Source of the DNA: Promethearchaeota archaeon
Lineage (GTDB): Archaea > Asgardarchaeota > Lokiarchaeia > Sigyniarchaeales > SOKP01
Assembly: GCA_016930515.1 (NCBI GenBank)
Contig: JAFGGO010000116.1
Span: 1 to 13,657, forward strand
Reading direction: 5' to 3'
DNA: 13,657 bases
Positions 414 to 13,634 of this stretch are shown in pieces. Numbering within the stretch: position 1 is the first letter of the stretch; every line of letters begins with the position of its first letter. Both the position numbers and the translations under genes were made by a program. The notes below the pieces were generated by a model. That model saw only the letters and a program-made list of their open reading frames with translations, ran no database searches and was not told the origin of the DNA.

Positions 414-923
414 TTAAAATTCTATTCCAAATCGGGCATTAATACCCTGAGAGATGTAATAATGCTTGATCATTTTCATTTCCGTAATGAGATCAACTTT
501 ATCTATAACTTCTTGAGGTACTTGCTTACCACCTGTTATGATCAGTTCTACTCTTTTTGGTTTTAAATCGATAATTTCGAGCAAGTCTTTTACATCTACG
601 ATACCCATTTCGATAGCAACTCCAATCTCGTCCAGAATGACCACATCGTATTCTTCACTCGAGATTATCTCTTTAGCGTGCTTGATTGCCTTTTCACCCT
701 CATAGAGATCAATGTCTCCTGGAGTTTTTACTAATTCAGGAGTACCAAACTGCCTGAGTTCGAAATTTGGATTTAATCCTATAGCCTTTACTTCTCCGTA
801 GTTGCTATTTCCTTTTAAAAATTGGATCATGTAAACTTTGAAACTATGACCAGCTGCTCGAAAACCCTGTCCAATAGCCGCAGTTGTTTTCCCCTTGCCT
901 CTTCCAAAATACCATTGAATCAA
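414..923 (-). CDS. cobO: ATP:corrinoid (cob(I)yrinic acid a,c-diamide) adenosyltransferase, CobO/BtuR/CobA family
   Basis: Family motifs GxGKGKTTAAxG (P-loop), QFLKG...YGE, YDVVILDE, ELIITG and DLITEM..IKHYY..G..AR.GIEF. The TTG at 923 probably truncates the N-terminus (see findings). Confidence 0.92.
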   Translation of the reverse strand: MIQWYFGRGKGKTTAAIGQGFRAAGHSFKVYMIQFLKGNSNYGEVKAIGLNPNFELRQFGTPELVKTPGDIDLYEGEKAIKHAKEIISSEEYDVVILDEIGVAIEMGIVDVKDLLEIIDLKPKRVELIITGGKQVPQEVIDKVDLITEMKMIKHYYISQGINARFGIEF

Positions 924-1005
924 GCCTTGCTGTAATCTTTGTCGTGTAATATTTAAATCCCTTATTTTGATATTATGTATTGTTTTAATGAGAATTTTAT
1001 AATGA

Positions 1006-1818
1006 TTATTTTAAAATTTTAAATGCTTCTTCTTTTTGCGATTCAATATAGTTTTTAATTAGTTCAAGCGTATCTTGGATGTTCTTTTTATTGTTAAAAG
1101 TAAAAATTATTTGATTTAATTCTTCGCTAGGCAATTTTCGTAGTTTGGTAGCCATTTCGATCATCGCGGGTAATGCCCTCACGATGTTGTCAACAATTGA
1201 AATATCTGCCCATAGGGCTGTTCGGCTGATTGGGTTGAGATCGACAGTTATAACTCTTTTACCTAATTTTTTTAAAGCTTCCGTGCGGTCTCCGTCTTCT
1301 AGTGGAACAAAAACAGTATCAGCTATTTTAATTCCATTTGGATCTACTAATCTTCGATTACTTCGCAGTTCTTCTATCTCAACCATAGTAGATTCGTCCG
1401 TACCCAAGATATTGGTTGCCCCTGCTTTTTTTAAGGCGTTTGTTATAGCCTCAATTCTACCTTCTTTACGGTAAAAAAGGTTAATTTCAAGAGGAGCGGA
1501 GATTATTGTTGATAATTTTACGAGCTCCTCGGGAACTAAAGCAGCAACATTTCCATTCACGCTTATAATTGGATGATCTGAAACTAACAAAAGTGCTACG
1601 GCAGCTTTAATGGCTTCAAGGGCTGTTTTATTTGTCTTTTCTCCCAAAATATAATCAAAACATTCGCCACGACCATGGGCAATGAGGCCTGCTTCCGCGA
1701 CGATTAGATTTTTCATTCCTTCTATAAGATCATGCCGATGTTTAAGGCTTTCGAATCGAGGATGGTCCTCGGGGACGTGACTGGGTTTATTTCCTTGCTT
1801 GCTCATTCTTGTCTCCAC
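1006..1818 (-). CDS. pps: Archaeal phosphopantothenate synthetase (4-phosphopantoate--beta-alanine ligase)
   Basis: Signature motifs P.DHPR.ESL, GLIAHGRGE.FDY.LGEKT, P.ISVNGN.AAL, VPLEDGDRTEAL, DLNP.SRT and IVDNIVRA. The ORF track starts at GTG 1818; the ATG at 1806 (MSKQ) is an equally plausible start. Confidence 0.93.
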   Translation of the reverse strand: METRMSKQGNKPSHVPEDHPRFESLKHRHDLIEGMKNLIVAEAGLIAHGRGECFDYILGEKTNKTALEAIKAAVALLLVSDHPIISVNGNVAALVPEELVKLSTIISAPLEINLFYRKEGRIEAITNALKKAGATNILGTDESTMVEIEELRSNRRLVDPNGIKIADTVFVPLEDGDRTEALKKLGKRVITVDLNPISRTALWADISIVDNIVRALPAMIEMATKLRKLPSEELNQIIFTFNNKKNIQDTLELIKNYIESQKEEAFKILK

Positions 1819-2367
1819 GAATCTTTATATCATAATAGGAAAAATGATCATATACATATTACTTTTACTAAGCTAAGATAATGCTTTTAAAAAAGACCGA
1901 TAAATTCGCTATTTGGTTCAAGAAAATGTTTTAATATTTAAAGAATTTTATTATTTTTTTTGGTTGTAACATTCCATTTAACTCACTTTCCCACCCATAG
2001 TGTTTGAACCAAAGCATATAGTAATCCCGCAGGGATTTTAAAATTCCTTGCAAAGTAGGTTTTATTTCTTTTTGTTTTTATTTAGAGCTTCCATTTTTTC
2101 AACTAGCCTGTAACTATAGTTTTAATATATTTTGTGGCATGTAAAAAAAGGGATTGTTATTGAGTTTTTCGTAGTTACCCATCGATTGAGACGATAGATC
2201 ATTATATATAAAATTATGAGTAAAGTAATTTTCTTCTAATAGCTTATAATCAAAAATTATTAATTTTCTTTCGAATTTCATTATTTGGTAAAAAAAAAGC
2301 CTGTAAATAAGATTAAACAATTTCTTTTTAGCAAAATATTTTATTCAAATAAGTTAAGAATGATCTT

Positions 2368-3546
2368 ATGAGAAACGAAGGAATGAAAAAGGAGGACATC
2401 TTAAATTTCCTTGATAAAAAATTAGACGGCGATTACGCTTACGATATGGGATATATATTGGGTTCAATGTGTACGGAACCCCTCGATTTTGGAAAAGAAG
2501 TATATACAAAATACTTGCATAAAAATTTAGGAGACCCAGGGCTTTTCAAGGCAACAGCAGACTTAGAAAACGAATTAATAGCCGATATCGGAGAATTATT
2601 AAACGGAAAGAACATCATCGGAACTTTTACGACAGGTGGTTCTGAAGCAAACATAGTTGCCATGCGCCTTGCGAGAAAATCTCGTCCCGAGATCAAGGAT
2701 CCTGAGATCGTGGTACCCGCTTCTGCACACATGTCCTTTGAAAAAGGAGCAGATCTAATGGGCGTAAAAGTTAGGAAAGCTAACTTGAAAGAAGATTTCG
2801 AATTAAACTTGGAACATTTCGAATCCCTAATTAATAAAAATACTTGCGGAATCGTAGGTATTGCCGGAACAACCTCGTTGGGATTGGTAGATCCTATTGT
2901 GAAGATGGCAAAAATCATAGATGATAAGGACATTTTTTTTCACGTTGACGCTGCGTTCGGCGGATTCGTTCTTCCCTTTTTAGAAAAGCTAGGTCACGAA
3001 ATATTACCTTGGGACTTCCGTGTAAAACAGGTCTGTTCTATCACTTCGGATCCGCATAAAATGGGCCTTGGAATCATTCCTTCTGGCGGATTTTTCGTCA
3101 GAGATGCTTCAATACTCGAGCATGCTGGATTTGAAATACCCTATCTCGCAGGCGGAGGATTCAAGCACTTGCATATTGTAGGAACTAGACCTGGAGGTAC
3201 GGTAATTGCGTTTTGGGCGATTATGAACTTCTTAGGAATAGAAGGATATAAAAAGATTGTAAAACAGTGCATGGATAACACATATTACTTAGCAAAACGT
3301 ATTTCAGAGATAAAAGGAGTTAAATTAGCAGCAGATCCCGTGATGAACGTTTTGGGAATTACAACGGAAAGCGGGAGAAGCGTTTGCGAGATGGATAATG
3401 AGTTCCGTAAGAAGCATTGGATGCTTGGAAAATTCATGGATTTGAATCTCATACGCGTGGTTATCATGCCTCATGTTACAAGAGAACATCTTTCTGACTT
3501 CTGTGTCGATCTAGAAAATATCGTAAAGAATTTAAAATTGACATAA
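2368..3546 (+). CDS. mfnA: MfnA-family group II PLP-dependent decarboxylase (L-tyrosine/L-aspartate decarboxylase)
   Basis: ILGSMCTEP, NLGDPGLF, TTGGSEAN, SAHMSFEK, HVDAAFGG, SITSDPHKMG (PLP lysine at 3058-3060), GTRPG and R.V.MPHV are all MfnA hallmarks. Length is 392 aa. Confidence 0.92.
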   Translation: MRNEGMKKEDILNFLDKKLDGDYAYDMGYILGSMCTEPLDFGKEVYTKYLHKNLGDPGLFKATADLENELIADIGELLNGKNIIGTFTTGGSEANIVAMRLARKSRPEIKDPEIVVPASAHMSFEKGADLMGVKVRKANLKEDFELNLEHFESLINKNTCGIVGIAGTTSLGLVDPIVKMAKIIDDKDIFFHVDAAFGGFVLPFLEKLGHEILPWDFRVKQVCSITSDPHKMGLGIIPSGGFFVRDASILEHAGFEIPYLAGGGFKHLHIVGTRPGGTVIAFWAIMNFLGIEGYKKIVKQCMDNTYYLAKRISEIKGVKLAADPVMNVLGITTESGRSVCEMDNEFRKKHWMLGKFMDLNLIRVVIMPHVTREHLSDFCVDLENIVKNLKLT

Positions 3547-3785: not shown

Positions 3786-6700
3786 GTGAAAAATCAGATG
3801 GGAGAAAATTTAGATTTAGACGACCTAAAAAGGCAGCTACGGGATCAATATAACAGGCGTAATCATGGTCTCACGATCGAATTAGCAAATAAAATACTCG
3901 AACAAGAGCCAGATTATTACGATGCCTTGGAATATAGGCTTGTCGCTACTTATGGATTAAAACAAGACGCTCCAGAGGCTGAAAAGGAACAATTAAGTCC
4001 AAGATATAAGGAGCTTGCCCTAGCAATGATAAAATACATGGAAGAAAAGGGCGATTTTACCAGAGATTCTCGCAAGCAATACACATATGTCGTAGCACGA
4101 AACAATTTAGGTTGGGAAGAAGTACTTCACGGTAAAACAGAAGAAGAGTGGGAAACGGGTTTGAAACACGTTGAAGTAGGATTGAAATACGACCAGCCGT
4201 CCTTTGCCTTGGATACAAAAATACGATTGCTTTTAAAATTAGAAAGAAATAGCGAGGCTTACGAAATAGCCCTTTCAATGCTAAGAAAAAACGAAAAGGA
4301 GAGAGACGTTCAGGACATAAAGTCAAACGCCGAATTCATCGAATGGGTTAAGAAGAAGCATCCCACTGATGTTTTAATCGTTGATAAGCACGAGGGCATG
4401 AACTTAAGAGATAAAGCTTTCCTGCAGGAGTTAGAATCACTTCTAAAAAAAACCTTAAAGGAGATTGAACCAGATAAAACGGGAAGGCAAGGATTTAGAA
4501 CCGTTAATGATAGAATAACTTCTCTTTTCTTGCGCGATTCCTACAATTTAGAGTCAATTCCAGAGAGTATAGGAAATTTGGATCACTTAAAAGAACTAGA
4601 AATAACATATAACGGTAATTTAAGGACATTACCTGAAAATCTAGGAAATTTGAAAAATCTCGAAGCACTAACGATAAAGAATTGCTACCTACTTAATAAT
4701 CTCCCAGAATCGCTTGGCAATTTAGAAAATCTGAGATGGTTTACGATAGATTACCTTAGAAGTGTGGAAACCTTACCAAACACGATTGGAAACCTGAAGA
4801 ACCTTGAAACCCTCTATATTAATCAAATTGGATCTAATTCTCTTCCAGAATCCATGGAAAGATTGAAAAAATTGTCCACCCTCAAGATTAAGAATTGTTC
4901 TTTCGAAAGCTTACCAGAAGGAATATGTGAATTATCTTCTTTAACCAATTTGGAAATAAAACACTGCAATTCCCTTCGCACGCTCCCCAAAAACATTGCG
5001 AAGCTTAAATCGTTAGAGATCCTAATTCTCGAAAATCTTTCTGGCATAGATTCGCTACCCGAGAGTTTTGGCGAATTAGAAAAATTGAGCAAATTAGAGA
5101 TGACGAAACTAAACGAGCTTCCCGTATTACCAGAATCTATTGGAGAATTACATTCGTTAGGGTTTTTAACCATTAATCGCTGTAGGGGCCTGAAAGATCT
5201 TCCTGAAAGCATCGGTAATCTCCCAAACCTTCGAGAATTTAGGCTAATAGAATGTAATGGTATTAGTACTATTCCAAACAATTTTTCAAAACTCCAAAAG
5301 CTTGAAACGATTGAAATTAATTCGCTTTCAGACGATTTTAAGGGATTCTCGGATAATTTTGGCAATTTAAAATCCCTTAATAAAGTTTCAATATCCAGTT
5401 GTAATGGTATCGAAAGCCTACCAGACACAATAGATAGTTTACATTACCTAAAAGATTTAGAGATTTCTTCTTGTCGCAAATTAAAAAACCTACCAAGAAG
5501 TATTGGTGGTATAACATCTCTTGTTAAGCTATCTCTATATGAATGTGATAATATTGAATTATTACCCGTTGAACTTACGGATCTTGCTTCCTTGGAAGAA
5601 ATACGCCTTGATAATTGTCAAAAATTATGTAAATTACCTGATTCTTTTACCAAGCTCCAAAATCTACGTAGAATATACATCAACAAGTGCCCAAGCTTAC
5701 AACTTATCCCTGACGAATTTGTGAATTTAAAATCAATAGAGGAAATAATTATTTTAAGATCGGGATTGAAAGCCCCGCCAGACAAGTTAAATTCTTTTAA
5801 GAACCTCAAAAAGCTAGAACTTTCGGGGAACATTTATTCTCCAGATAAAGACGAGAAGATGGAACTTATAAAAAAAAGGTGGAAAAAATACGAAAATCCC
5901 TGGAGGCGTTTTATCCTCTGGGGTTGGGACGAAAAAAATAATCCATCTTACATTATTCTTTATGGAAAGCACGATTTTATGGGGCTTGAAATTAATATTA
6001 ATGACAAAGAAATTGAGGATTTTGCTCAACTGAAAGTGCAATCTCTTCCGGAAGGAAAACGATTAGATATTAAACCAGGGGTCTATAATGTGCTTCAAGA
6101 CGATGTGAAGTACTCCTGCTACGCCGTTTTTCATGGTAAAAAAGGCCACTTACCTTCTTTCCAAGCTATAAAGGTCATTCAAAAAAGCCATTACGATTAT
6201 AAGACGCGATCATATTCTTACGATGACCCTGAAATGTATTTCAAAAAAGATATTTCATATCATTGGGGATGGAAGACGGATAAAAAAAAAATGTACAAGG
6301 AATTTAATAACCTCAAGGAATCGAAAAAAATCGTGCTCCCATATTTCGCACTCCTTTCTTACAAGCAACTTGTAAATAAGATTCATGAGCAGAAGTTCCA
6401 AATCAAGGGTTTCAGGATTGCAAGCTCTCTAAACGAGATACTGCAATTACCCAAAGATAAAGCAGAATACATCGAAATTATTGTAAAAACAATAAACCAC
6501 CAAAACATATACATAAGAAAAAAATACCTTTTCGAGCTGCTTTCAAAAGGACCTTCTAAAGATATATTGGCATCAATTATTAAAGTTGGTAGCTCAGAAC
6601 TCATTTCTGGGATATTTTTAGAGTTAGCTAAGCTCCAAAACCCCATTTTATTAAACGAGGCCCAGAACATTATCGACGGCTCGATTGAATGGACAGATGA

Positions 6701-8825
6701 AAGTTTCGCTCGTGGTGTTAAGAGATGCGCAACAATATATGTTAATTCCCTTGATTCAGAAAAAGTAAAACAGAGATCTAATTGGATTCTTAAGAATCTC
6801 CCAAACGCGGATCTTCATTTGAAAAAATTGAGAGGGGAAGAAATTCCTCCAGAAAAGCGATTAACGGGAGCTACTTATCGTAAATACGCACAGCAAGGTT
6901 ATTTGAATGACAATTATAAATATTACGATTACAATTCGAGAGATTATATATACGAAACTAATCGATACGATATAGGAGCATACTCCAACGGAATGATTTT
7001 AAATATAATCGAGTTTAAAAACACGATTCAAGAGGCAGAGATTTATCAGTTATCAAACATAATTGGCAAGATTGCTTATTATATTGATGCTCCTCGAATC
7101 GTTTATTATCTCAAGGGAAGCAAGAAAACCAAGGCTCTACGCTATTTCCAGAGTTACCTAAGGAGGATAATAAGTTCTATTGCAGATAAAGACGAATTAA
7201 AATTCATGGAAATAATGAAAGATTTTTTAACAAGCTTTAAACCCGAAGATTCTGTTAGCAAGTACGCTAATGATTTTTCCTCTAATACTCTCTTGAGATT
7301 TTTCATGTACCACGATTTTTCAGAAATTGGTCCAGATAGAAAAACAACGACTTGGGAGGAACGAGCGGAATATTATAGCGTGCCAAAAATGATGAGATTA
7401 ACGGGGCGTCGAGAATTTAAAAAGGAGATCTGGGACAGGCACTTAGATGTTGTTTTGGAAATCGTTTTAAACGCTCAGATAGACTCTATTAAGAAAGCTT
7501 GCTATTATATCTTAAAAGAAACATCAAACCTTCAAGAATTTGTCGATAAAATGTCCTTTAAACAAATCATCCAACTGGCTCTTGCGTCCTACGAACCGTT
7601 AGCAGGAATGTTCCTAAAAATTTTAAACGAAAAGATGGAAAAAATAGAAACCTTCGATCCCGAATTGATGCTCGCATTAATTGGATCTTCTGACGATCAA
7701 ATGCAACACCACGCCATGGATTTTTTCAACAGAACAAACGGATCTTTTGCACCAGAGACAGTCGCAGATTTTATCTTTTTAGACAACTTAGATCGTTGGT
7801 TTGAACTCTTTCAACAGAATTTAACGGCACTAAAGGGAGATAATTTTGCACAATTCCTTGAGAGCATTATCAATAAAATTCCAGAATTTATTGATAAAGA
7901 AATATCCATTTCACAGGAAACAAAAGATTTGTTATCAAATTCAACGCAGGAGATGGAATATTTATCGCCTTCGGTAAAAAAAGAGTTAATAACTGTTATA
8001 ATTGAAGTTATTTCAAAACAAAGAAGTATTCCTGATTGGACTATGAACTTACTTGAGGAGTGTATTTTTTCTATACCATATGAGGATTTAGATCTTGCGT
8101 TAAAAGGAATTGATATTGATTCTTTCAAGGGCGCATTTACTCAGAAAAGGATAATCTTTGCAATACTAAAGGCGATAAAAAACAATCAATTACCTTCGAA
8201 TCCTGATATCATTGATCTTTTAGATATTGGTACTGCTAAAATAATTAACACTTTTCTCACGATGGTGTCAAGGAACAAGGAAGAACTATCCAACCGTTTT
8301 TCGACTTTGCTTGTGATGTTCGAGTCGGAGGTTATATCGCTAAATCTTCACGCAGCCGATGTGTTTAATGAGTTGCCTCGTGAAAAACAAAAACGGTTGC
8401 ATTCAATGGTAATTGATTCTCCAGTTCATAGAGCCTATGAGTTTGGCCTTAAGAAGCTAGAAAGCGTTTATGGGGATTTAATTCCTGACGACATGATAAT
8501 TCAAATGCTAGAACACGGATCGAGCGAGGTAAAAGCCTATGTTTCCCGTAAAATTAACAATATAATCGAAAACTTAGGGAACGGCGATAAGAACCTTTTC
8601 ATGTATTATCTTCACACCTTATTATTACTACCAAACAAGCATGCAAAAAGTAAAAATAAGATTTACAATGTGTTACCCAAGTTTGCGTTGAAATATCAAG
8701 ATAAAATAAAGGAAATAGAACGAATGTTATTAGATATCGGCGGTTCTAATGTAATCGCCGATTCCGAGCGAGCGTTAGTGGCGCTTGCTAAAATAAAAAA
8801 GGAGGTACAAATAAATGCAAGTTAA
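3786..8825 (+). CDS. Large multidomain protein: N-terminal TPR-like helices, ~18 leucine-rich repeats and a ~990-aa C-terminal region ending in ARM/HEAT-like helical repeats; putative retron accessory/sensor
   Basis: aa ~1-190 are TPR-like (ANKILEQEPDYYDAL; NNLGW...ALDTKIRLLLKL). aa ~244-682 are LRRs. The region after M692 has a different, aromatic-rich character and then becomes Leu/Ile/Glu-rich amphipathic helices; the ARM/HEAT call is by eye only. Start is GTG 3786 or ATG 3798. Confidence 0.8.
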   Translation: MKNQMGENLDLDDLKRQLRDQYNRRNHGLTIELANKILEQEPDYYDALEYRLVATYGLKQDAPEAEKEQLSPRYKELALAMIKYMEEKGDFTRDSRKQYTYVVARNNLGWEEVLHGKTEEEWETGLKHVEVGLKYDQPSFALDTKIRLLLKLERNSEAYEIALSMLRKNEKERDVQDIKSNAEFIEWVKKKHPTDVLIVDKHEGMNLRDKAFLQELESLLKKTLKEIEPDKTGRQGFRTVNDRITSLFLRDSYNLESIPESIGNLDHLKELEITYNGNLRTLPENLGNLKNLEALTIKNCYLLNNLPESLGNLENLRWFTIDYLRSVETLPNTIGNLKNLETLYINQIGSNSLPESMERLKKLSTLKIKNCSFESLPEGICELSSLTNLEIKHCNSLRTLPKNIAKLKSLEILILENLSGIDSLPESFGELEKLSKLEMTKLNELPVLPESIGELHSLGFLTINRCRGLKDLPESIGNLPNLREFRLIECNGISTIPNNFSKLQKLETIEINSLSDDFKGFSDNFGNLKSLNKVSISSCNGIESLPDTIDSLHYLKDLEISSCRKLKNLPRSIGGITSLVKLSLYECDNIELLPVELTDLASLEEIRLDNCQKLCKLPDSFTKLQNLRRIYINKCPSLQLIPDEFVNLKSIEEIIILRSGLKAPPDKLNSFKNLKKLELSGNIYSPDKDEKMELIKKRWKKYENPWRRFILWGWDEKNNPSYIILYGKHDFMGLEININDKEIEDFAQLKVQSLPEGKRLDIKPGVYNVLQDDVKYSCYAVFHGKKGHLPSFQAIKVIQKSHYDYKTRSYSYDDPEMYFKKDISYHWGWKTDKKKMYKEFNNLKESKKIVLPYFALLSYKQLVNKIHEQKFQIKGFRIASSLNEILQLPKDKAEYIEIIVKTINHQNIYIRKKYLFELLSKGPSKDILASIIKVGSSELISGIFLELAKLQNPILLNEAQNIIDGSIEWTDESFARGVKRCATIYVNSLDSEKVKQRSNWILKNLPNADLHLKKLRGEEIPPEKRLTGATYRKYAQQGYLNDNYKYYDYNSRDYIYETNRYDIGAYSNGMILNIIEFKNTIQEAEIYQLSNIIGKIAYYIDAPRIVYYLKGSKKTKALRYFQSYLRRIISSIADKDELKFMEIMKDFLTSFKPEDSVSKYANDFSSNTLLRFFMYHDFSEIGPDRKTTTWEERAEYYSVPKMMRLTGRREFKKEIWDRHLDVVLEIVLNAQIDSIKKACYYILKETSNLQEFVDKMSFKQIIQLALASYEPLAGMFLKILNEKMEKIETFDPELMLALIGSSDDQMQHHAMDFFNRTNGSFAPETVADFIFLDNLDRWFELFQQNLTALKGDNFAQFLESIINKIPEFIDKEISISQETKDLLSNSTQEMEYLSPSVKKELITVIIEVISKQRSIPDWTMNLLEECIFSIPYEDLDLALKGIDIDSFKGAFTQKRIIFAILKAIKNNQLPSNPDIIDLLDIGTAKIINTFLTMVSRNKEELSNRFSTLLVMFESEVISLNLHAADVFNELPREKQKRLHSMVIDSPVHRAYEFGLKKLESVYGDLIPDDMIIQMLEHGSSEVKAYVSRKINNIIENLGNGDKNLFMYYLHTLLLLPNKHAKSKNKIYNVLPKFALKYQDKIKEIERMLLDIGGSNVIADSERALVALAKIKKEVQINAS
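4515..5831 (+). repeat. Protein-level leucine-rich repeat array, ~18-19 units of 23-25 aa
   Basis: Consensus LPxxIGxLxxLxxLxIxxCxxLxx. I counted 18 LP/IP-type anchors from IPES to PPDK. The DNA copies are diverged. Confidence 0.95.
8799..8806 (+). promoter_or_regulatory. Shine-Dalgarno-like site for the SWIM gene
   Basis: AAGGAGGT ends 8 nt before the ATG at 8815, inside the 3' end of the upstream gene. Confidence 0.6.
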
Positions 8826-10578
8826 TTACAAGTACGCAAGTCCTTCAATGTGTCTTCAACAAGAAGACCAGACCATATTAGGGTTAAGTCCTGACCTATC
8901 GAGGGAAGAAAAAGTATCGTTTAGGGGAAAACTAAAACACCCCTTAATATTCAGAGACGCCATGTTAATGTTGCGCGAGATCGTCATATCAGATATGAGC
9001 CAAAAAAAGAAAGAAAGATTAGAGTTTTTTGCGTGGCTCGAAGACGAGATCGAAAGACGCGTTCTAAAGCACGAAAAATACTTACCCGGAGTAAGAGAAA
9101 GCTTGAGAGACGAAATGGAAGGTTTGCTTAAAGAATTAGCAGAAAAGGACGATTTATTAAAAAACCTTGCCAATGCGAGAGCCAATTTAAATAAGGAAAT
9201 TTATGACACGGGCGCCTGGAAAGAATATAACAAGCTCGAAAGGAAGTTCTGGAATTTCATTCGAAACCGCGATAAAGACTTGTGGTTCGTACTAGATCCC
9301 GTGATTACGGTTCATCCAGACCAAGTATCTTTTGAAGCGTTTTCATTGGATGAGTCCACTTATGGATGCTTATCGGTTACGATGGACGAATTTATTTTAG
9401 TACAAGAACCCCAATTAGGAACGACGAATATCGATTTTTCTGCCAAGTTATCAAGAGAGATGGAACGGTTTAGAACTTACACGAATGTCGAGTTATCCGT
9501 AAATCCAGAAGGTTTTACTGTAGAAACGGGAGTAATGCCCGAATATGTGGAAAAAAAGATAGACTTGCCCGAAACATGGATAAAAGGATTTAACCAAGTA
9601 TCAGCTGCTGCAAGTCTGGGAGGAGTTGATCTCGAACTATCTCCCGTTGACATGTATGACATTTGTTCGTTCTTACGAAGGCACAAGGCACGCAAAAGCC
9701 CTCGATACATGAAATGGATATTAGAACCCGGAAAACACGTGAAGATCGTTCTCGAACCATGGGGTTCGAAATTGGAATTAAAGGCGGTTTACAGCGGAGA
9801 TAGAATACGGGAAGAAAAAGTATGGGGAAGACGGCGCTGGTTAGTAATGGAAAAGATAATACCTATCGCATCATCATTCAAGGTAAGACTTTTAGGATTT
9901 GGTATGCCTCAGTTTATCGTAGCAGACTTGGGCACGATGAAGATGACAATAGGTTTTACTTCCTGGTCTTCAAACGATTGGGTGAAGGGTACGGCATTTA
10001 ATATTTTAGGGGGATACATAGGCGAGGGGAACTACGAAGACATATACACTTTGTTAAAAAAACGTCGCCTTTTGTCGTTAGAAGAGATCAACAAAGAGTT
10101 ATCAGATTTCACGAAAAGTAAAAACAAATCGGGAGTAGGCATGGTACTTAAGCGTGGAGAGGCTTATTATGATCCAATCGTTGATGCCGTAAGATTTCGA
10201 CAATTGTGCAATTCTCCCATTCCCAAAGAATTGTACGAAACTACCACGATGGAACTAAGCGTGCAAGAACATTTGGAAGAAGGAATGAAAGGCTTTACGT
10301 TGAAACAAACTCAAGAAAAAGATTTTATTGCCACGCACGCCTTGAAAAAAGGAAAGCGAAAGGAAAATCTTACCAAAACTGAAATGACAATCAATCAAGA
10401 TGGGCAAATCACCAAAGTAAAATGTGATTGCAAGCAATTCAAAAAAGGGGCGAGAAACATTTCCGATCCGTGCGCTCACCTTCTTTCCTTGTATATTACC
10501 ACATCGAAATTTTTAAACTTGGAATTAAAGCCAGATAGAGAATATACCATAAATGACATTTTGGAGATGTTATTATGA
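8815..10578 (+). CDS. SWIM zinc-finger domain protein, putative retron type XIII accessory
   Basis: C-terminal CxC-x13-CxH motif (CDCKQFKKGARNISDPCAH, 10423-10479) and an N-terminal coiled coil. The core blocks LDPVITVHPD..SFEAFS.DES.YG, GTTNIDFS, KKIDLPETWIKGF.QV and WGRRR match my recollection of the SWIM family found beside Mx162-like RTs. Confidence 0.85.
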   Translation: MQVNYKYASPSMCLQQEDQTILGLSPDLSREEKVSFRGKLKHPLIFRDAMLMLREIVISDMSQKKKERLEFFAWLEDEIERRVLKHEKYLPGVRESLRDEMEGLLKELAEKDDLLKNLANARANLNKEIYDTGAWKEYNKLERKFWNFIRNRDKDLWFVLDPVITVHPDQVSFEAFSLDESTYGCLSVTMDEFILVQEPQLGTTNIDFSAKLSREMERFRTYTNVELSVNPEGFTVETGVMPEYVEKKIDLPETWIKGFNQVSAAASLGGVDLELSPVDMYDICSFLRRHKARKSPRYMKWILEPGKHVKIVLEPWGSKLELKAVYSGDRIREEKVWGRRRWLVMEKIIPIASSFKVRLLGFGMPQFIVADLGTMKMTIGFTSWSSNDWVKGTAFNILGGYIGEGNYEDIYTLLKKRRLLSLEEINKELSDFTKSKNKSGVGMVLKRGEAYYDPIVDAVRFRQLCNSPIPKELYETTTMELSVQEHLEEGMKGFTLKQTQEKDFIATHALKKGKRKENLTKTEMTINQDGQITKVKCDCKQFKKGARNISDPCAHLLSLYITTSKFLNLELKPDREYTINDILEMLL

Positions 10579-12035
10579 CCGAAAACACAAAACAAGACTA
10601 TAGAACGCTAATAAATCAAATGGGCAAGAAAGAATTTACTATCATGAAAATGCAGGAATACGGCTTTTGGCCAAAAGATCTGCCAACTCCTTACGAAAAG
10701 CAATTAAACGAAACGCCTGAACAGTATTCCAAGCGTAAAGCGCTCGTGGAGGATTATAAAAGCATTATAGAAAGAATTTCAAAATTATACAAGGAAAAGC
10801 AAGAAATTAACGATAAACTAAGAGATTTGCGAAAAAAATACGACGAAACTTGGGACATCGAAAGAATAAGAAAAGATATCGCCCAAACGATCATGAAAGA
10901 ATCCATTGCTCGTCGCACAGAAAAAAAAAAGCAACGGGAACTCGAAAAACACGCGAAATCAGAAGCGTGGAAAAAGAAAAAAGCAGAACAAATCATTTTT
11001 ATTGGAAAGGGTTATTCTTCCTTTTTATACGATAACGAGACGGACCAGCCAAAACTTGAGTTGCAAGGCTTACCTGTCATAAAATCTGATATAGACTTAG
11101 CTAATTTTTTGGAAATAGATTATAAAAAGCTTAGGTTTTTGTCCTATCATCGTGATGTCGTTACTGTAGACCATTATCACCGTTACACCATTCCAAAGAG
11201 AAAAGGGGGAATGAGAAACATTGCTGCTCCAAAACCCATTTTAAAATCAGTTCAAAGAAAGATATTGGAAGATATTTTAAACAAATTTTCTCTTTCCCAA
11301 CAGGCTCATGGATTTATAAAGGAAAGATCTATCTTGAGTGGAGCGCTAGCACACAACATTCAACCCGCCCTGGTCATTAACATGGACATTGAGAATTTTT
11401 TTCCAACCATTTCTTTTGAACGAGTTCGGGGCATGTTTAAATCAGCGGGATATTCAGGATTCATTTCTTCGTTATTAGCAATGTTATGTACTTACTGCGA
11501 GCGCGTGTCAATAGAAGTAAAAAATAAAACAAGATTCATAGCAACTACAAAACGAATTTTACCTCAAGGTTCTCCTGCAAGCCCGATGATAACTAATATT
11601 ATTTGCAGGAGGTTGGACCAAAGGTTGAACGGACTCGCAAGTAAATTTGGATTTACTTACACGAGATATGCAGACGATATGAGCTTCAGCATAAACGACG
11701 AGACTAATGTGAAAGTGGGAAGATTCTACGGATTAGTTTCAAAAATCGTGAAAGACGAGGGATTTGAAATTAATAAAGAGAAAACACGGTTTTTAAGGAA
11801 AAATAACAGGCAATCCATCACGGGAGTAGTTGTCAACAACGAGAAACTTGGAGTTAATCGAATGTGGATGAGACGGTTTAGGGCTGCGATTCACAACGCA
11901 AGCAAGTTAAGATCAAATGGAGATTTGCCAATTGAAGTAAAAAGGGAGCTTTCGGGCATGGCTTCGTGGGTTAGAAGCGTTAATCCCGAACGTTACAAGA
12001 AATTAATAGAGACCGCAATGGAGGTAATTAAATAA
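10575..12035 (+). CDS. ret: Retron-type reverse transcriptase (Mx162/Sa163-like) with a ~150-aa charged N-terminal extension
   Basis: IPKRKGG.R.IAAP, AHGF...RSI, region X GALAH (canonical NAxxH; 11340-11354), DIENFFPTI, LPQGSPASP, YTRYADD (YADD at 11667-11678), region Y ITGVVVN (canonical VTG; 11817-11825) and RAAIHN. No maturase or endonuclease domain. The start overlaps the upstream stop (ATGA), with GGAG at 10563-10566. Confidence 0.95.
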   Translation: MTENTKQDYRTLINQMGKKEFTIMKMQEYGFWPKDLPTPYEKQLNETPEQYSKRKALVEDYKSIIERISKLYKEKQEINDKLRDLRKKYDETWDIERIRKDIAQTIMKESIARRTEKKKQRELEKHAKSEAWKKKKAEQIIFIGKGYSSFLYDNETDQPKLELQGLPVIKSDIDLANFLEIDYKKLRFLSYHRDVVTVDHYHRYTIPKRKGGMRNIAAPKPILKSVQRKILEDILNKFSLSQQAHGFIKERSILSGALAHNIQPALVINMDIENFFPTISFERVRGMFKSAGYSGFISSLLAMLCTYCERVSIEVKNKTRFIATTKRILPQGSPASPMITNIICRRLDQRLNGLASKFGFTYTRYADDMSFSINDETNVKVGRFYGLVSKIVKDEGFEINKEKTRFLRKNNRQSITGVVVNNEKLGVNRMWMRRFRAAIHNASKLRSNGDLPIEVKRELSGMASWVRSVNPERYKKLIETAMEVIK

Positions 12036-12064
12036 CTCTCATTTCAGGAAAAGAGAATAATTAT

Positions 12065-12251
12065 TTTCCTTGGCCTTCATGCCTCGGCGTTGCGTTGCGG
12101 TCGAAACTTGCCAAGCACACGACACCTGGACGAGCGCAACTCGCATCGCTGGTGTCCTAAATTTAAAACTGTAGGATCCATTTTAATAAATTTAGGACAA
12201 ACTGCTTTGCTAAAGTGTTGCATCTAGTTATGAGAATTGATAGCAAGGAAA
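12065..12251 (+). ncRNA. Putative retron ncRNA (msr-msd), copy 1
   Basis: Terminal IR TTTCCTTG (12065-12072) / CAAGGAAA (12244-12251), extendable to 12055/12257 with a bulge. Candidate branch G at 12073. Perfect 13-bp stem 12153-12165 / 12187-12199 with a 21-nt loop. Confidence 0.75.
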
Positions 12252-12278
12252 TTATTCCTTCCTTTTCCAATATTTATT

Positions 12279-12324
12279 AAAAAAAAAAAAATTTATTATA
12301 AATCAATTCCTCATAATTATAATA
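12279..12324 (+). promoter_or_regulatory. Putative archaeal promoter (A-rich BRE + TATA-like TTTATTA) for ncRNA copy 2
   Basis: An A13 run (12279-12291) is followed by TTTATTATA (12292-12300), starting 33 nt before the TTGGATTTCTTG arm. The same motif and spacing occur before copy 3. Confidence 0.45.
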
Positions 12325-12519
12325 TTGGATTTCTTGGCCTTCACGCCTCGGCGTTGCGCCGCGGTCGAAACTTGCCAAGCACACGACACCTGGACGAGCG
12401 CAACTCGCATCGCTACGCTGATCGTGCGCATTGAAAATGGAGCCTACGGTTATGCGACGATCAGCGCGCTCTGCTGAAGTGTCACGTCCAGTTGTGAGAA
12501 TCGTTAGCAAGAAATCCAA
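12325..12519 (+). ncRNA. Putative retron ncRNA (msr-msd), copy 2
   Basis: Perfect 12-bp terminal IR TTGGATTTCTTG (12325-12336) / CAAGAAATCCAA (12508-12519). Candidate branch G at 12337. 15-bp stem with one bulge, 12416-12431 / 12452-12466, and a 20-nt loop. Confidence 0.8.
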
Positions 12520-12540
12520 AATTCTCTATATCATTATAGA

Positions 12541-12583
12541 CACAAGAAGATTTATTAACTATCAAATCCTCATAATTATAATA
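12541..12583 (+). promoter_or_regulatory. Putative archaeal promoter for ncRNA copy 3
   Basis: Purine-rich AAGAAGA followed by TTTATTA (12551-12557), 33 nt before the TTGGATTTCTTG arm. It shares TCCTCATAATTATAATA with the copy 2 leader. Confidence 0.45.
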
Positions 12584-12584
12584 T

Positions 12585-12775
12585 TGGATTTCTTGGCCTT
12601 CACGCCTCGGCGTTGCGCCGCGGTCGAAACTTGCCAAGCACACGACACCTGGGCGTGCGCAACTCGCGTCGCTACATATAGTGTCTGATTGAAAATGGAG
12701 CCTTCGGTGATCAGACACTATATGCGCTCTGCTGAAGTGTCACTCCCAACTGTGAGAAAGTTAGCAAGAAATCCA
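12585..12775 (+). ncRNA. Putative retron ncRNA (msr-msd), copy 3
   Basis: Perfect 11-bp terminal IR TGGATTTCTTG (12585-12595) / CAAGAAATCCA (12765-12775). Candidate branch G at 12596. Perfect 15-bp stem CATATAGTGTCTGAT (12675-12689) / ATCAGACACTATATG (12710-12724) with a 20-nt loop. Confidence 0.8.
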
Positions 12776-12779
12776 TTAA

Positions 12780-12795
12780 TTTTTTCTTTTTATTT
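12780..12795 (+). terminator. Putative archaeal oligo-T terminator of the ncRNA array
   Basis: TTTTTTCTTTTTATTT lies 4 nt after the last IR arm and just before the stop codon of the convergent gene. Confidence 0.5.
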
Positions 12796-12803
12796 AATAA
12801 AAA

Positions 12804-13634
12804 TTAATTCAGTTTTATGAGATGTGCAAAATTGTTGTAAAAGACTTTCTGAAGCGTGCTTTTTTCTAAATTCAAACAGATAATCTTATTAATTTCAATA
12901 TCGGGAGGATTTGCGGCGGGAGCGTCAGAACCGAAAATCACTCTGTCCTCACCCATTGCTTTTATGAGAGATAATATCCCAAACGGGATGGACACGCTCG
13001 TTTCGAAATAGACATTTGGAATGTTCGAATCGTGAGCAAAAAAACGGACTAAACTCACGCAATATTCCATCGAAAAAGCCGCATGACCAATAATTAATTT
13101 TAGCTCCTTATATTTTTTTGCAAGGGCGTGATAATCTTTAACGCGAGCTTGTTTTTGAAAGAAAAAGCCAGAACCAGAGTGAATGTATAATGGAACATCG
13201 TGTTCTACGCAAAATTCTGCTAATTGATAAAAATCGTGTGGTGCCTTGAGAAAATCGATATAAGGGTGCGTTTTAACACCTTTAAATCCATAATCGACGA
13301 TATATTTTTCTAAAAAATCCCAATCATCTTCAGAAGCGATTTTTGGATTAAACCAGAAGAATCCATAAATGCGTTTTGGATACTCCTTAATGAGTGCCCT
13401 GACCTGCTCGTGGTCGTATTGTTGTTTTGGAACGAATTGATTCAATAATTCTTTAATATCGAGGATTTTTCCGCTTTGTTCGATGGCATTCATATTTGCG
13501 GCTTGATTCAAGGTAGTTACGGCAGCTTTCTCAATTCCGTGCTTATCCATTAATTGAATAAGGGACTCTTCTCTTGGTTTGAATCGCCCTGCGTGGTGCA
13601 TGTGAGCGTCAAAGATTTTAAATTCATTAGCCAT
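12804..13634 (-). CDS. Amidohydrolase family protein (metal-dependent TIM barrel, Amidohydro_2-like)
   Basis: N-terminal DAHMH (HxH), GFKGVKTHP, VPLYIHSG, IIGHA, NVYFETS, G.DRVIFGSD.P and a C-terminal KVFYNN. Confidence 0.88.
   Translation of the reverse strand: MANEFKIFDAHMHHAGRFKPREESLIQLMDKHGIEKAAVTTLNQAANMNAIEQSGKILDIKELLNQFVPKQQYDHEQVRALIKEYPKRIYGFFWFNPKIASEDDWDFLEKYIVDYGFKGVKTHPYIDFLKAPHDFYQLAEFCVEHDVPLYIHSGSGFFFQKQARVKDYHALAKKYKELKLIIGHAAFSMEYCVSLVRFFAHDSNIPNVYFETSVSIPFGILSLIKAMGEDRVIFGSDAPAANPPDIEINKIICLNLEKSTLQKVFYNNFAHLIKLN

What the first reader, a model, noticed from the sequence alone, without database searches (positions are those of the whole stretch)
3786..12795. Complete type XIII (Mx162-like) retron operon in an apparent Asgard archaeon, with a multiplexed ncRNA array
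Seen in the sequence: an overlapping operon of helical-repeat/LRR protein, SWIM protein and retron RT, followed by three msr-msd-like cassettes, all between archaeal housekeeping genes. Established: retrons are mostly bacterial anti-phage systems, normally with one ncRNA, and type XIII carries ARM/SWIM accessories with a poorly understood mechanism. Inference: this is an archaeal antiviral system in which one RT makes three different msDNAs and the accessory has gained a receptor-like module. I do not know of a description of this architecture but cannot search to confirm.
Basis: partly seen in the sequence, partly recalled or inferred. Interest (0 to 1): 0.9.

Follow-up and report, generated by a model that had tools for sequence, protein, structure and literature searches.

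The report
Asgard retron with three template RNAs
An Asgard archaeon carries an intact, archaeon-adapted copy of a known but functionally unexplained bacterial reverse-transcriptase system (type XIII retron), with three separately promoted template RNAs and an added leucine-rich-repeat module; whether it fights viruses is not shown.

Summary
Confirmed. The window holds a type XIII retron (TPR-LRR-HEAT protein, SWIM protein, RT; PADLOC XIII models are the top hits) followed by three msr-msd units. It is a 9.26-kb insertion between mfnA and an amidohydrolase gene, shared by two related Promethearchaeota assemblies and absent from that site in three congeners, so it is not a chimera. It belongs to the Firmicutes subfamily rather than the Mx162 one. 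8 of 400 phylum genomes carry type XIII, from several acquisitions. Units share the msr (92-97%) but have unrelated msd stems; wobble-pair asymmetry indicates folding as cDNA. Arrays are not Asgard-specific: 9 of 63 clostridial loci have 2-6 units, and this scan noted bacterial arrays before. New here: each internal Asgard unit has its own TATA box; the LRR fusion is confined to the Loki clade and conserved; unit 1 has its loop inverted. The SWIM protein has a PCNA clamp fold (Z 15.9; also noted earlier by the scan). Antiviral function is untested: neighbours are mostly housekeeping genes and the LRR shows no diversifying selection. No paper found on natural arrays or Asgard retrons.

The parts
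3786..8825 (+). Accessory protein: TPR-like N-terminus (aa 1-200), about 19 LRRs (aa 235-690), beta-rich WGR-like domain (aa 690-880), HEAT/ARM solenoid to the C-terminus
   Evidence: fusion conserved in relatives; dN/dS 0.08-0.15 in all parts
8815..10578 (+). SWIM protein: PCNA-like two-domain clamp fold (aa 35-388) with a long helical insertion, DEDE motif from D161, winged helix (403-464), SWIM finger C537-C539-C553-H555
10575..12035 (+). Retron RT, type XIII (clade 10); region X QAHGF 243, YADD 365, region Y ITG 415, N-terminal helical extension
   Evidence: dN/dS 0.058
12065..12251 (+). ncRNA unit 1: a1 12065-12072, a2 12244-12251, candidate branch G 12073, perfect 13-bp msd stem; no own TATA box (read-through from RT)
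12166..12186 (-). msd loop of unit 1, present as the reverse complement of the family's conserved loop (in-place inversion between the stem arms)
   Evidence: 1 mismatch in reverse versus 6 forward; only clear case among 106 units
12292..12298 (+). TATA-like box of unit 2, 45 nt before the end of a1
12327..12517 (+). ncRNA unit 2: a1 12327-12336, a2 12508-12517, candidate branch G 12337, GC-rich msd stem, canonical loop
12551..12557 (+). TATA-like box of unit 3, 45 nt before the end of a1
12586..12774 (+). ncRNA unit 3: a1 12586-12595, a2 12765-12774, candidate branch G 12596, 15-bp msd stem, canonical loop
   Evidence: same stem type with a compensatory change in GCA_016839425
2368..3546 (+). 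mfnA, left flank of the insertion (host gene, not part of the system)
12804..13634 (-). Amidohydrolase gene, right flank (host gene); directly follows mfnA in three congeners without the retron at this site

Best explanation
A type XIII retron of the subfamily shared with Clostridia, settled in a Lokiarchaeia-type lineage and adapted to it. (1) Unit 1 is read through from the operon, units 2 and 3 from their own archaeal promoters (inferred from motifs). (2) In each RNA a1 pairs with a2 and exposes a G; the RT primes there and copies the msd into a branched DNA hairpin (established retron chemistry; sequence features shown, product not shown). (3) The msDNAs share a ~20-nt loop and differ in a 13-17 bp stem whose pairing, not sequence, is common to all (shown). 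(4) RT-msDNA assembles with the clamp-fold SWIM protein, which grips the duplex stem regardless of sequence, and with the HEAT scaffold; the TPR-LRR arm adds a protein-binding surface (inferred). (5) The complex works as a guard, as other retrons do: msDNA restrains or signals to the SWIM/HEAT module, foreign DNA-processing proteins that touch an msDNA trip it, and several stems widen what can trip it (inferred, weakest step). Odds by step: working retron 0.9; at least two different msDNAs 0.75; defence role 0.4.
For: Type XIII identity and purifying selection on all genes, dN/dS 0.045-0.15, with dS like that of mfnA. Covariation: 23 of 36 pairs with double changes, 96.5% paired versus 34-55% for slid controls. 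Across 102 units the msd stem has 4 G-U and 30 A-C oppositions (G-T on the complementary strand), the RNA helices 68 and 7, so the msd is selected to fold as cDNA; 84 of 102 loop tips read as a GNA-triloop mini-hairpin on the DNA strand. Within arrays msr identity averages 0.90 and stem identity 0.44 (shuffled 0.39); distinct stems are kept position by position between clostridial genomes. TATA-like box 43-46 nt upstream in 9 of 11 internal Asgard units and 7 of 7 loci, never reached in 2000-3000 shuffles, not in first units. Clamp fold Z 15.9, rmsd 3.0 over 223 residues. Most tested retrons defend against phage (Millman, 10.1101/2020.06.21.156273).
Against: No msDNA, transcript or phenotype was observed. 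Only 1 of 13 Asgard loci and about 4 of 18 clostridial loci have a credible defence neighbour. Millman et al. report two retron clades that are rarely near defence genes, and Mestre et al. (PMC7736814) report vertical inheritance for type XIII. No recognisable toxic effector domain. The LRR concave face is not more variable than other positions. About half of the Asgard loci and 54 of 63 clostridial loci have one ncRNA, so the array is dispensable. The wobble statistics count related sequences and overstate; the Asgard-only subset is 9 A-C versus 2 G-U.
Confidence: 0.4

Rival explanations
1. Same biochemistry, but a domesticated non-defence role: the msDNA-clamp-HEAT complex senses or regulates DNA replication, repair or stress, and the LRR couples it to host proteins of the LRR-rich Asgard proteome.
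For: Housekeeping neighbourhoods; vertical descent at one site with dS equal to mfnA; PCNA-like fold; at least 18 other contigs of the genome encode similar LRRs; type XIII tracks host phylogeny (PMC7736814).
Against: Patchy distribution (8 of 400 genomes), repeated acquisition, a frameshifted RT in one locus and varied domain fusions are typical of conflict systems.
Confidence: 0.3
2. The array is a dosage device that drifts. Extra units raise msDNA output; gene conversion homogenises the msr, while hairpin arms turn over by template switching and recombination. Stems are functionally equivalent and unit 1 is a decayed or neutral copy.
For: Copy number varies from 1 to 3 in the Loki clade; the closest relative has a chimeric unit with a broken stem; stems of the window and G003 are unrelated (0.28-0.50); unit 1 has the inverted loop and the lowest model score.
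Against: Arrays arose at least three times and always hold different stems; distinct stems persist between genomes; unit 1 keeps a1/a2 pairing and a perfect 13-bp stem. Note that this rival concerns the meaning of the array and is compatible with either function.
Confidence: 0.27
3. Assembly or binning artefact: a clostridial contig, or collapsed repeats, in an Asgard bin.
For: MAG with 5.3% contamination; proteins are 60-71% identical to clostridial ones.
Against: Archaeal genes on both sides; same arrangement in G003 and GCA_016839425; empty sites in three congeners; an independent Logan contig matches 12385-12649 without a difference; archaeal promoters in the array.
Confidence: 0.02

Closest known systems
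Type XIII retrons, RT clade 10 (Mestre et al. 2020, PMC7736814; Mx162, Mx65, Sa163, Ne144 and a Firmicutes ncRNA variant)
   Same: RT clade, WH-SWIM gene with DEDE motif, upstream WGR-like/HEAT-ARM gene, msr-msd RNA.
   Different: Archaeal host; three ncRNA units with separate TATA boxes; TPR-LRR fused to the HEAT protein; the paper does not mention tandem ncRNAs or a clamp fold and reads the DEDE region as transposase-derived.
Clostridial type XIII loci (for example Clostridium brassicae, Clostridium sp. MD294)
   Same: SWIM 60-71%, RT 55-67%, ncRNA 66-75% identical; 9 of 63 have arrays with variable stems.
   Different: No LRR; closest relatives have one ncRNA; the clostridial arrays lie upstream on the opposite strand with one sigma70 promoter and 20-40 nt spacers.
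Characterised defence retrons (Eco1/Ec86, Ec48, Eco7, Eco8, Sen2)
   Same: RT plus msDNA plus accessory protein; priming architecture.
   Different: Those have one ncRNA, a defined toxic effector and sit in defence islands; none of this is shown here.
Engineered multitrons (PMC10370050)
   Same: One RT serving several msd templates.
   Different: Synthetic; here natural, with complete msr-msd per unit.
PCNA / 9-1-1 sliding clamps
   Same: Two-domain fold, Z 15.9, rmsd 3.0, 223 of 248 residues.
   Different: 8-14% identity, 100-residue helical insertion, added winged helix and SWIM finger; ring formation unknown.

Membership tests
Type XIII retron | RT of clade 10 with retron motifs | tested here: met
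   RT_XIII 541 bits versus 286 for the next model; motifs X, YADD, Y; groups with clostridial type XIII RTs
Type XIII retron | Adjacent WH-SWIM gene with CxCx(n)CxH and DEDE motif | tested here: met
   winged helix in the model
Type XIII retron | Upstream WGR-like/HEAT-ARM gene | tested here: met
   WGR_XIII 3e-23; solenoid model pLDDT 90.5
Type XIII retron | msr-msd RNA with a1/a2 repeat, unpaired G and msd hairpin | tested here: met
Retron (general) | Production of 2'-5' branched msDNA | not testable with these tools
   only indirect: wobble asymmetry and GNA tip
Mx162 ncRNA subtype | Myxobacterial Mx162/Mx65 RNA structure and closest RT kin | tested here: inconclusive
   closest kin and RNA are clostridial; the published subtype models were not available
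Anti-phage retron systems | Location in defence islands | tested here: not met
   no background rate was computed
Anti-phage retron systems | Protection or abortive infection depending on RT, ncRNA and effector | not testable with these tools
   needs experiments
PCNA-type sliding clamp | Two-domain clamp fold | tested here: met
PCNA-type sliding clamp | Closed ring around duplex DNA | tested here: inconclusive
   complex job gave no verdict
Promethearchaeota (Asgard) host | Archaeal flanks and synteny with named relatives | tested here: met

The most novel reading that the evidence does not exclude
A Lokiarchaeia lineage has turned a type XIII retron into a multi-input immune sensor: one RT makes a repertoire of independently transcribed msDNA baits, held by a sliding-clamp-like protein and coupled to a eukaryote-like TPR-LRR receptor arm, with unit 1's inverted loop giving a complementary msDNA that can pair with and regulate the other two.
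Probability: 0.12. Interest if true: 0.9.

Novelty: new variant of a known kind. Interest (0 to 1): 0.62.

Why it matters
Type XIII includes the first retrons discovered, yet its function is unknown. This locus gives concrete handles: a clamp-fold partner, stems that vary freely around a fixed loop, a natural loop inversion as a built-in control, and independent origins of arrays under bacterial and archaeal promoters. It extends retrons to Asgard archaea, for which the dedicated defence survey (PMC11291487) does not mention them, and shows a bacterial-type system gaining an LRR module there. Natural multi-template retrons are also a design lead for multiplexed retron editing.

Tried and rejected
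Rfam: no match. Homodimer of the clamp region: no verdict. Viral contigs: no SWIM relative found. Sequencing runs: no RNA holder listed, and laid contigs were too sparse to say more than the 12385-12649 match. Stems as CRISPR-like spacers: 13-16 nt arms are too short to test; counts in the own genome gave nothing usable. Arrays as Asgard-specific: rejected. Single origin of all Asgard type XIII retrons: rejected, p-AU 1e-10. Direction of transfer between the Loki clade and Clostridia: unresolved; nest Clostridia inside Loki, another the reverse, p-AU 0.51. Diversifying selection on the LRR: not seen. HEAT protein fold search: only generic solenoids. Origin of the LRR from a host paralogue: host hits 36-37% and fused relatives 33-68%, not decisive. 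Paper searches for natural ncRNA arrays, type XIII function and Asgard retrons found no description; subscription papers are not covered.

Full report
Observation. PADLOC ranks type XIII models first for all three: WGR_XIII, SWIM_XIII and RT_XIII, the last at 541 bits against 286 for the next model. The RT has retron motifs X, YADD and Y; the SWIM protein has the DEDE motif and CxC..CxH finger given by Mestre et al. (PMC7736814). Three ~190-nt units follow the RT. Each has an a1/a2 inverted repeat followed by an unpaired G and one long msd hairpin. In an alignment with relatives 96.5% of cells pair and 23 of 36 pairs show double changes, far above slid controls.

Host and integrity. The window is a whole contig of a 4.0-Mb MAG. 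Its flanks are archaeal. A same-genus genome, whose contig matches an NCBI record named Promethearchaeota archaeon in length and coordinates, has the same order: mfnA, TPR-LRR-HEAT gene, SWIM, RT, two ncRNAs, amidohydrolase, on two contigs. So does GCA_016839425. In three other congeners mfnA and the amidohydrolase gene are adjacent, so the retron is a 9.26-kb insertion. Against GCA_016839425 all genes are under purifying selection (dN/dS 0.045-0.15) and dS (0.9-1.5) matches mfnA (1.24), so the cassette has descended with the locus. An independent contig matches the unit 2-3 junction exactly.

Distribution and origin. Eight of 400 genomes of the phylum have SWIM_XIII. Most fall in one Loki-family group whose nearest kin are Clostridia (SWIM 60-71%); two others, and a further Promethearchaeota RT, are separate lineages, and a single Asgard origin is rejected. 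Whether the Loki group is nested in Clostridia or the reverse depends on sampling. Bacteria to archaea is the more likely direction because type XIII is broad in bacteria (PMC13712802) and retrons are 4% of archaeal RTs (PMC8632793), but this is not shown.

The array. A model built from the units finds arrays of 2-3 in seven Asgard or Asgard-like loci (window, L084, L085, L112, L118, L121, L122) and of 2-6 in 9 of 63 clostridial loci. The clostridial arrays sit upstream on the other strand behind one sigma70 promoter; the Asgard arrays sit downstream, and 9 of 11 internal units have a TATA-like box 43-46 nt before the end of a1, in 7 of 7 loci, which shuffles never reach; first units lack it. 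The closest clostridial relatives have one unit. Arrays therefore arose at least three times (inference). Within arrays the msr is 90% identical on average and the stems 44%, near the shuffled 39%; in the window 92-97% and 27-40%. Non-canonical oppositions are G-U in the RNA helices (68 to 7) but A-C in the msd stem (30 to 4), which is G-T on the complementary strand, and 84 of 102 loop tips form a GNA mini-hairpin on that strand (stability of GNA triloops is my own knowledge). This is the best evidence that the msd is copied into DNA. Unit 1 carries the conserved loop in reverse between perfect 13-bp arms, the only clear case in 106 units. Its predicted DNA loop is complementary to those of units 2 and 3 (-12.9 and -10.3 kcal/mol), but a flip between inverted repeats gives that automatically. 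The closest relative has a unit 3-type copy with a compensatory change and a chimeric first unit, so recombination between units is ongoing.

The proteins. Residues 690-1679 of ORF1 match bacterial accessories over their full length; the TPR-LRR arm is extra. Seven of the 120 listed homologues have LRR domains on record, every named one is a Promethearchaeota or Lokiarchaeia protein, and L122 adds an eighth. They fall in one Asgard clade of the core tree, with two members lacking the LRR. The LRR is the least conserved part by identity but shows no excess change on its concave face. The SWIM protein folds as a PCNA-like clamp with a helical insertion, then a winged helix and the zinc finger. 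A sequence-blind duplex binder fits stems that keep pairing but not sequence; binding and ring formation are not shown.

Function. I favour a guard-type defence role at about 0.4, by analogy with tested retrons and because of patchy spread, repeated gain and varied fusions. Against it are housekeeping neighbourhoods, no clear toxic domain and reported vertical inheritance of type XIII. A domesticated DNA-metabolism or stress role is close behind (0.3). Whether the different stems matter or only add dosage is open.

Comparison and verdict. It meets every sequence criterion of type XIII and is a member, of the Firmicutes variant. I found no paper on natural retron ncRNA arrays, on type XIII function or on Asgard retrons in the held library. 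This scan has already noted tandem ncRNAs and the clamp fold in bacterial type XIII loci and another kind of Asgard retron. What this window adds is the complete Asgard operon, per-unit archaeal promoters, the Loki-restricted LRR fusion and the inverted loop. New variant of a known kind; interest 0.62.

Noticed in passing
L085:13186-13911 (G060): An unrelated type XIII retron (RT 41%) in another Asgard order has its own three-unit array with TATA boxes, and a second HEAT-ARM_XIII-like gene lies divergently at 4153-6810.
   Followed up: partly
L046:3593-4966, L050:3772-5082: Six-unit clostridial arrays behind one sigma70 promoter; stems are conserved by position among L042, L046 and L056.
   Followed up: partly
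L122:9001-10746: Asgard-like type XIII RT fused to a C-terminal BRCT domain, with LRR-HEAT gene and three ncRNAs.
   Followed up: partly
L086:12756-18719 (G053): A separate 1987-aa LRR protein directly follows the RT of an independently acquired type XIII retron: a possible second LRR association.
   Followed up: no
L111:4201-6540 (G281): A 779-aa TPR-repeat gene lies between the RT and its single ncRNA, about 3 kb apart.
   Followed up: no
L112:6730-8194 (G260): RT split by a frameshift although three ncRNA units are intact.
   Followed up: no
L110:547-3830 (G189): SWIM-RT-ncRNA without an adjacent HEAT gene.
   Followed up: no
L010:9806-11893; P0057, P0059, P0216, P0222: Clostridial type XIII RTs and HEAT proteins fused to TerD domains.
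   Followed up: no
L118:18232-18732, L127:6200-7042: Small GTPase genes directly downstream of two Asgard-like retron loci.
   Followed up: no
window 414-3546: Corrinoid adenosyltransferase, phosphopantothenate synthetase and mfnA cluster (cofactor biosynthesis); ordinary host genes.
   Followed up: no
G000:C18:11713-12402 and C79:13127-13807: Two further RT genes in the same genome, not examined.
   Followed up: no
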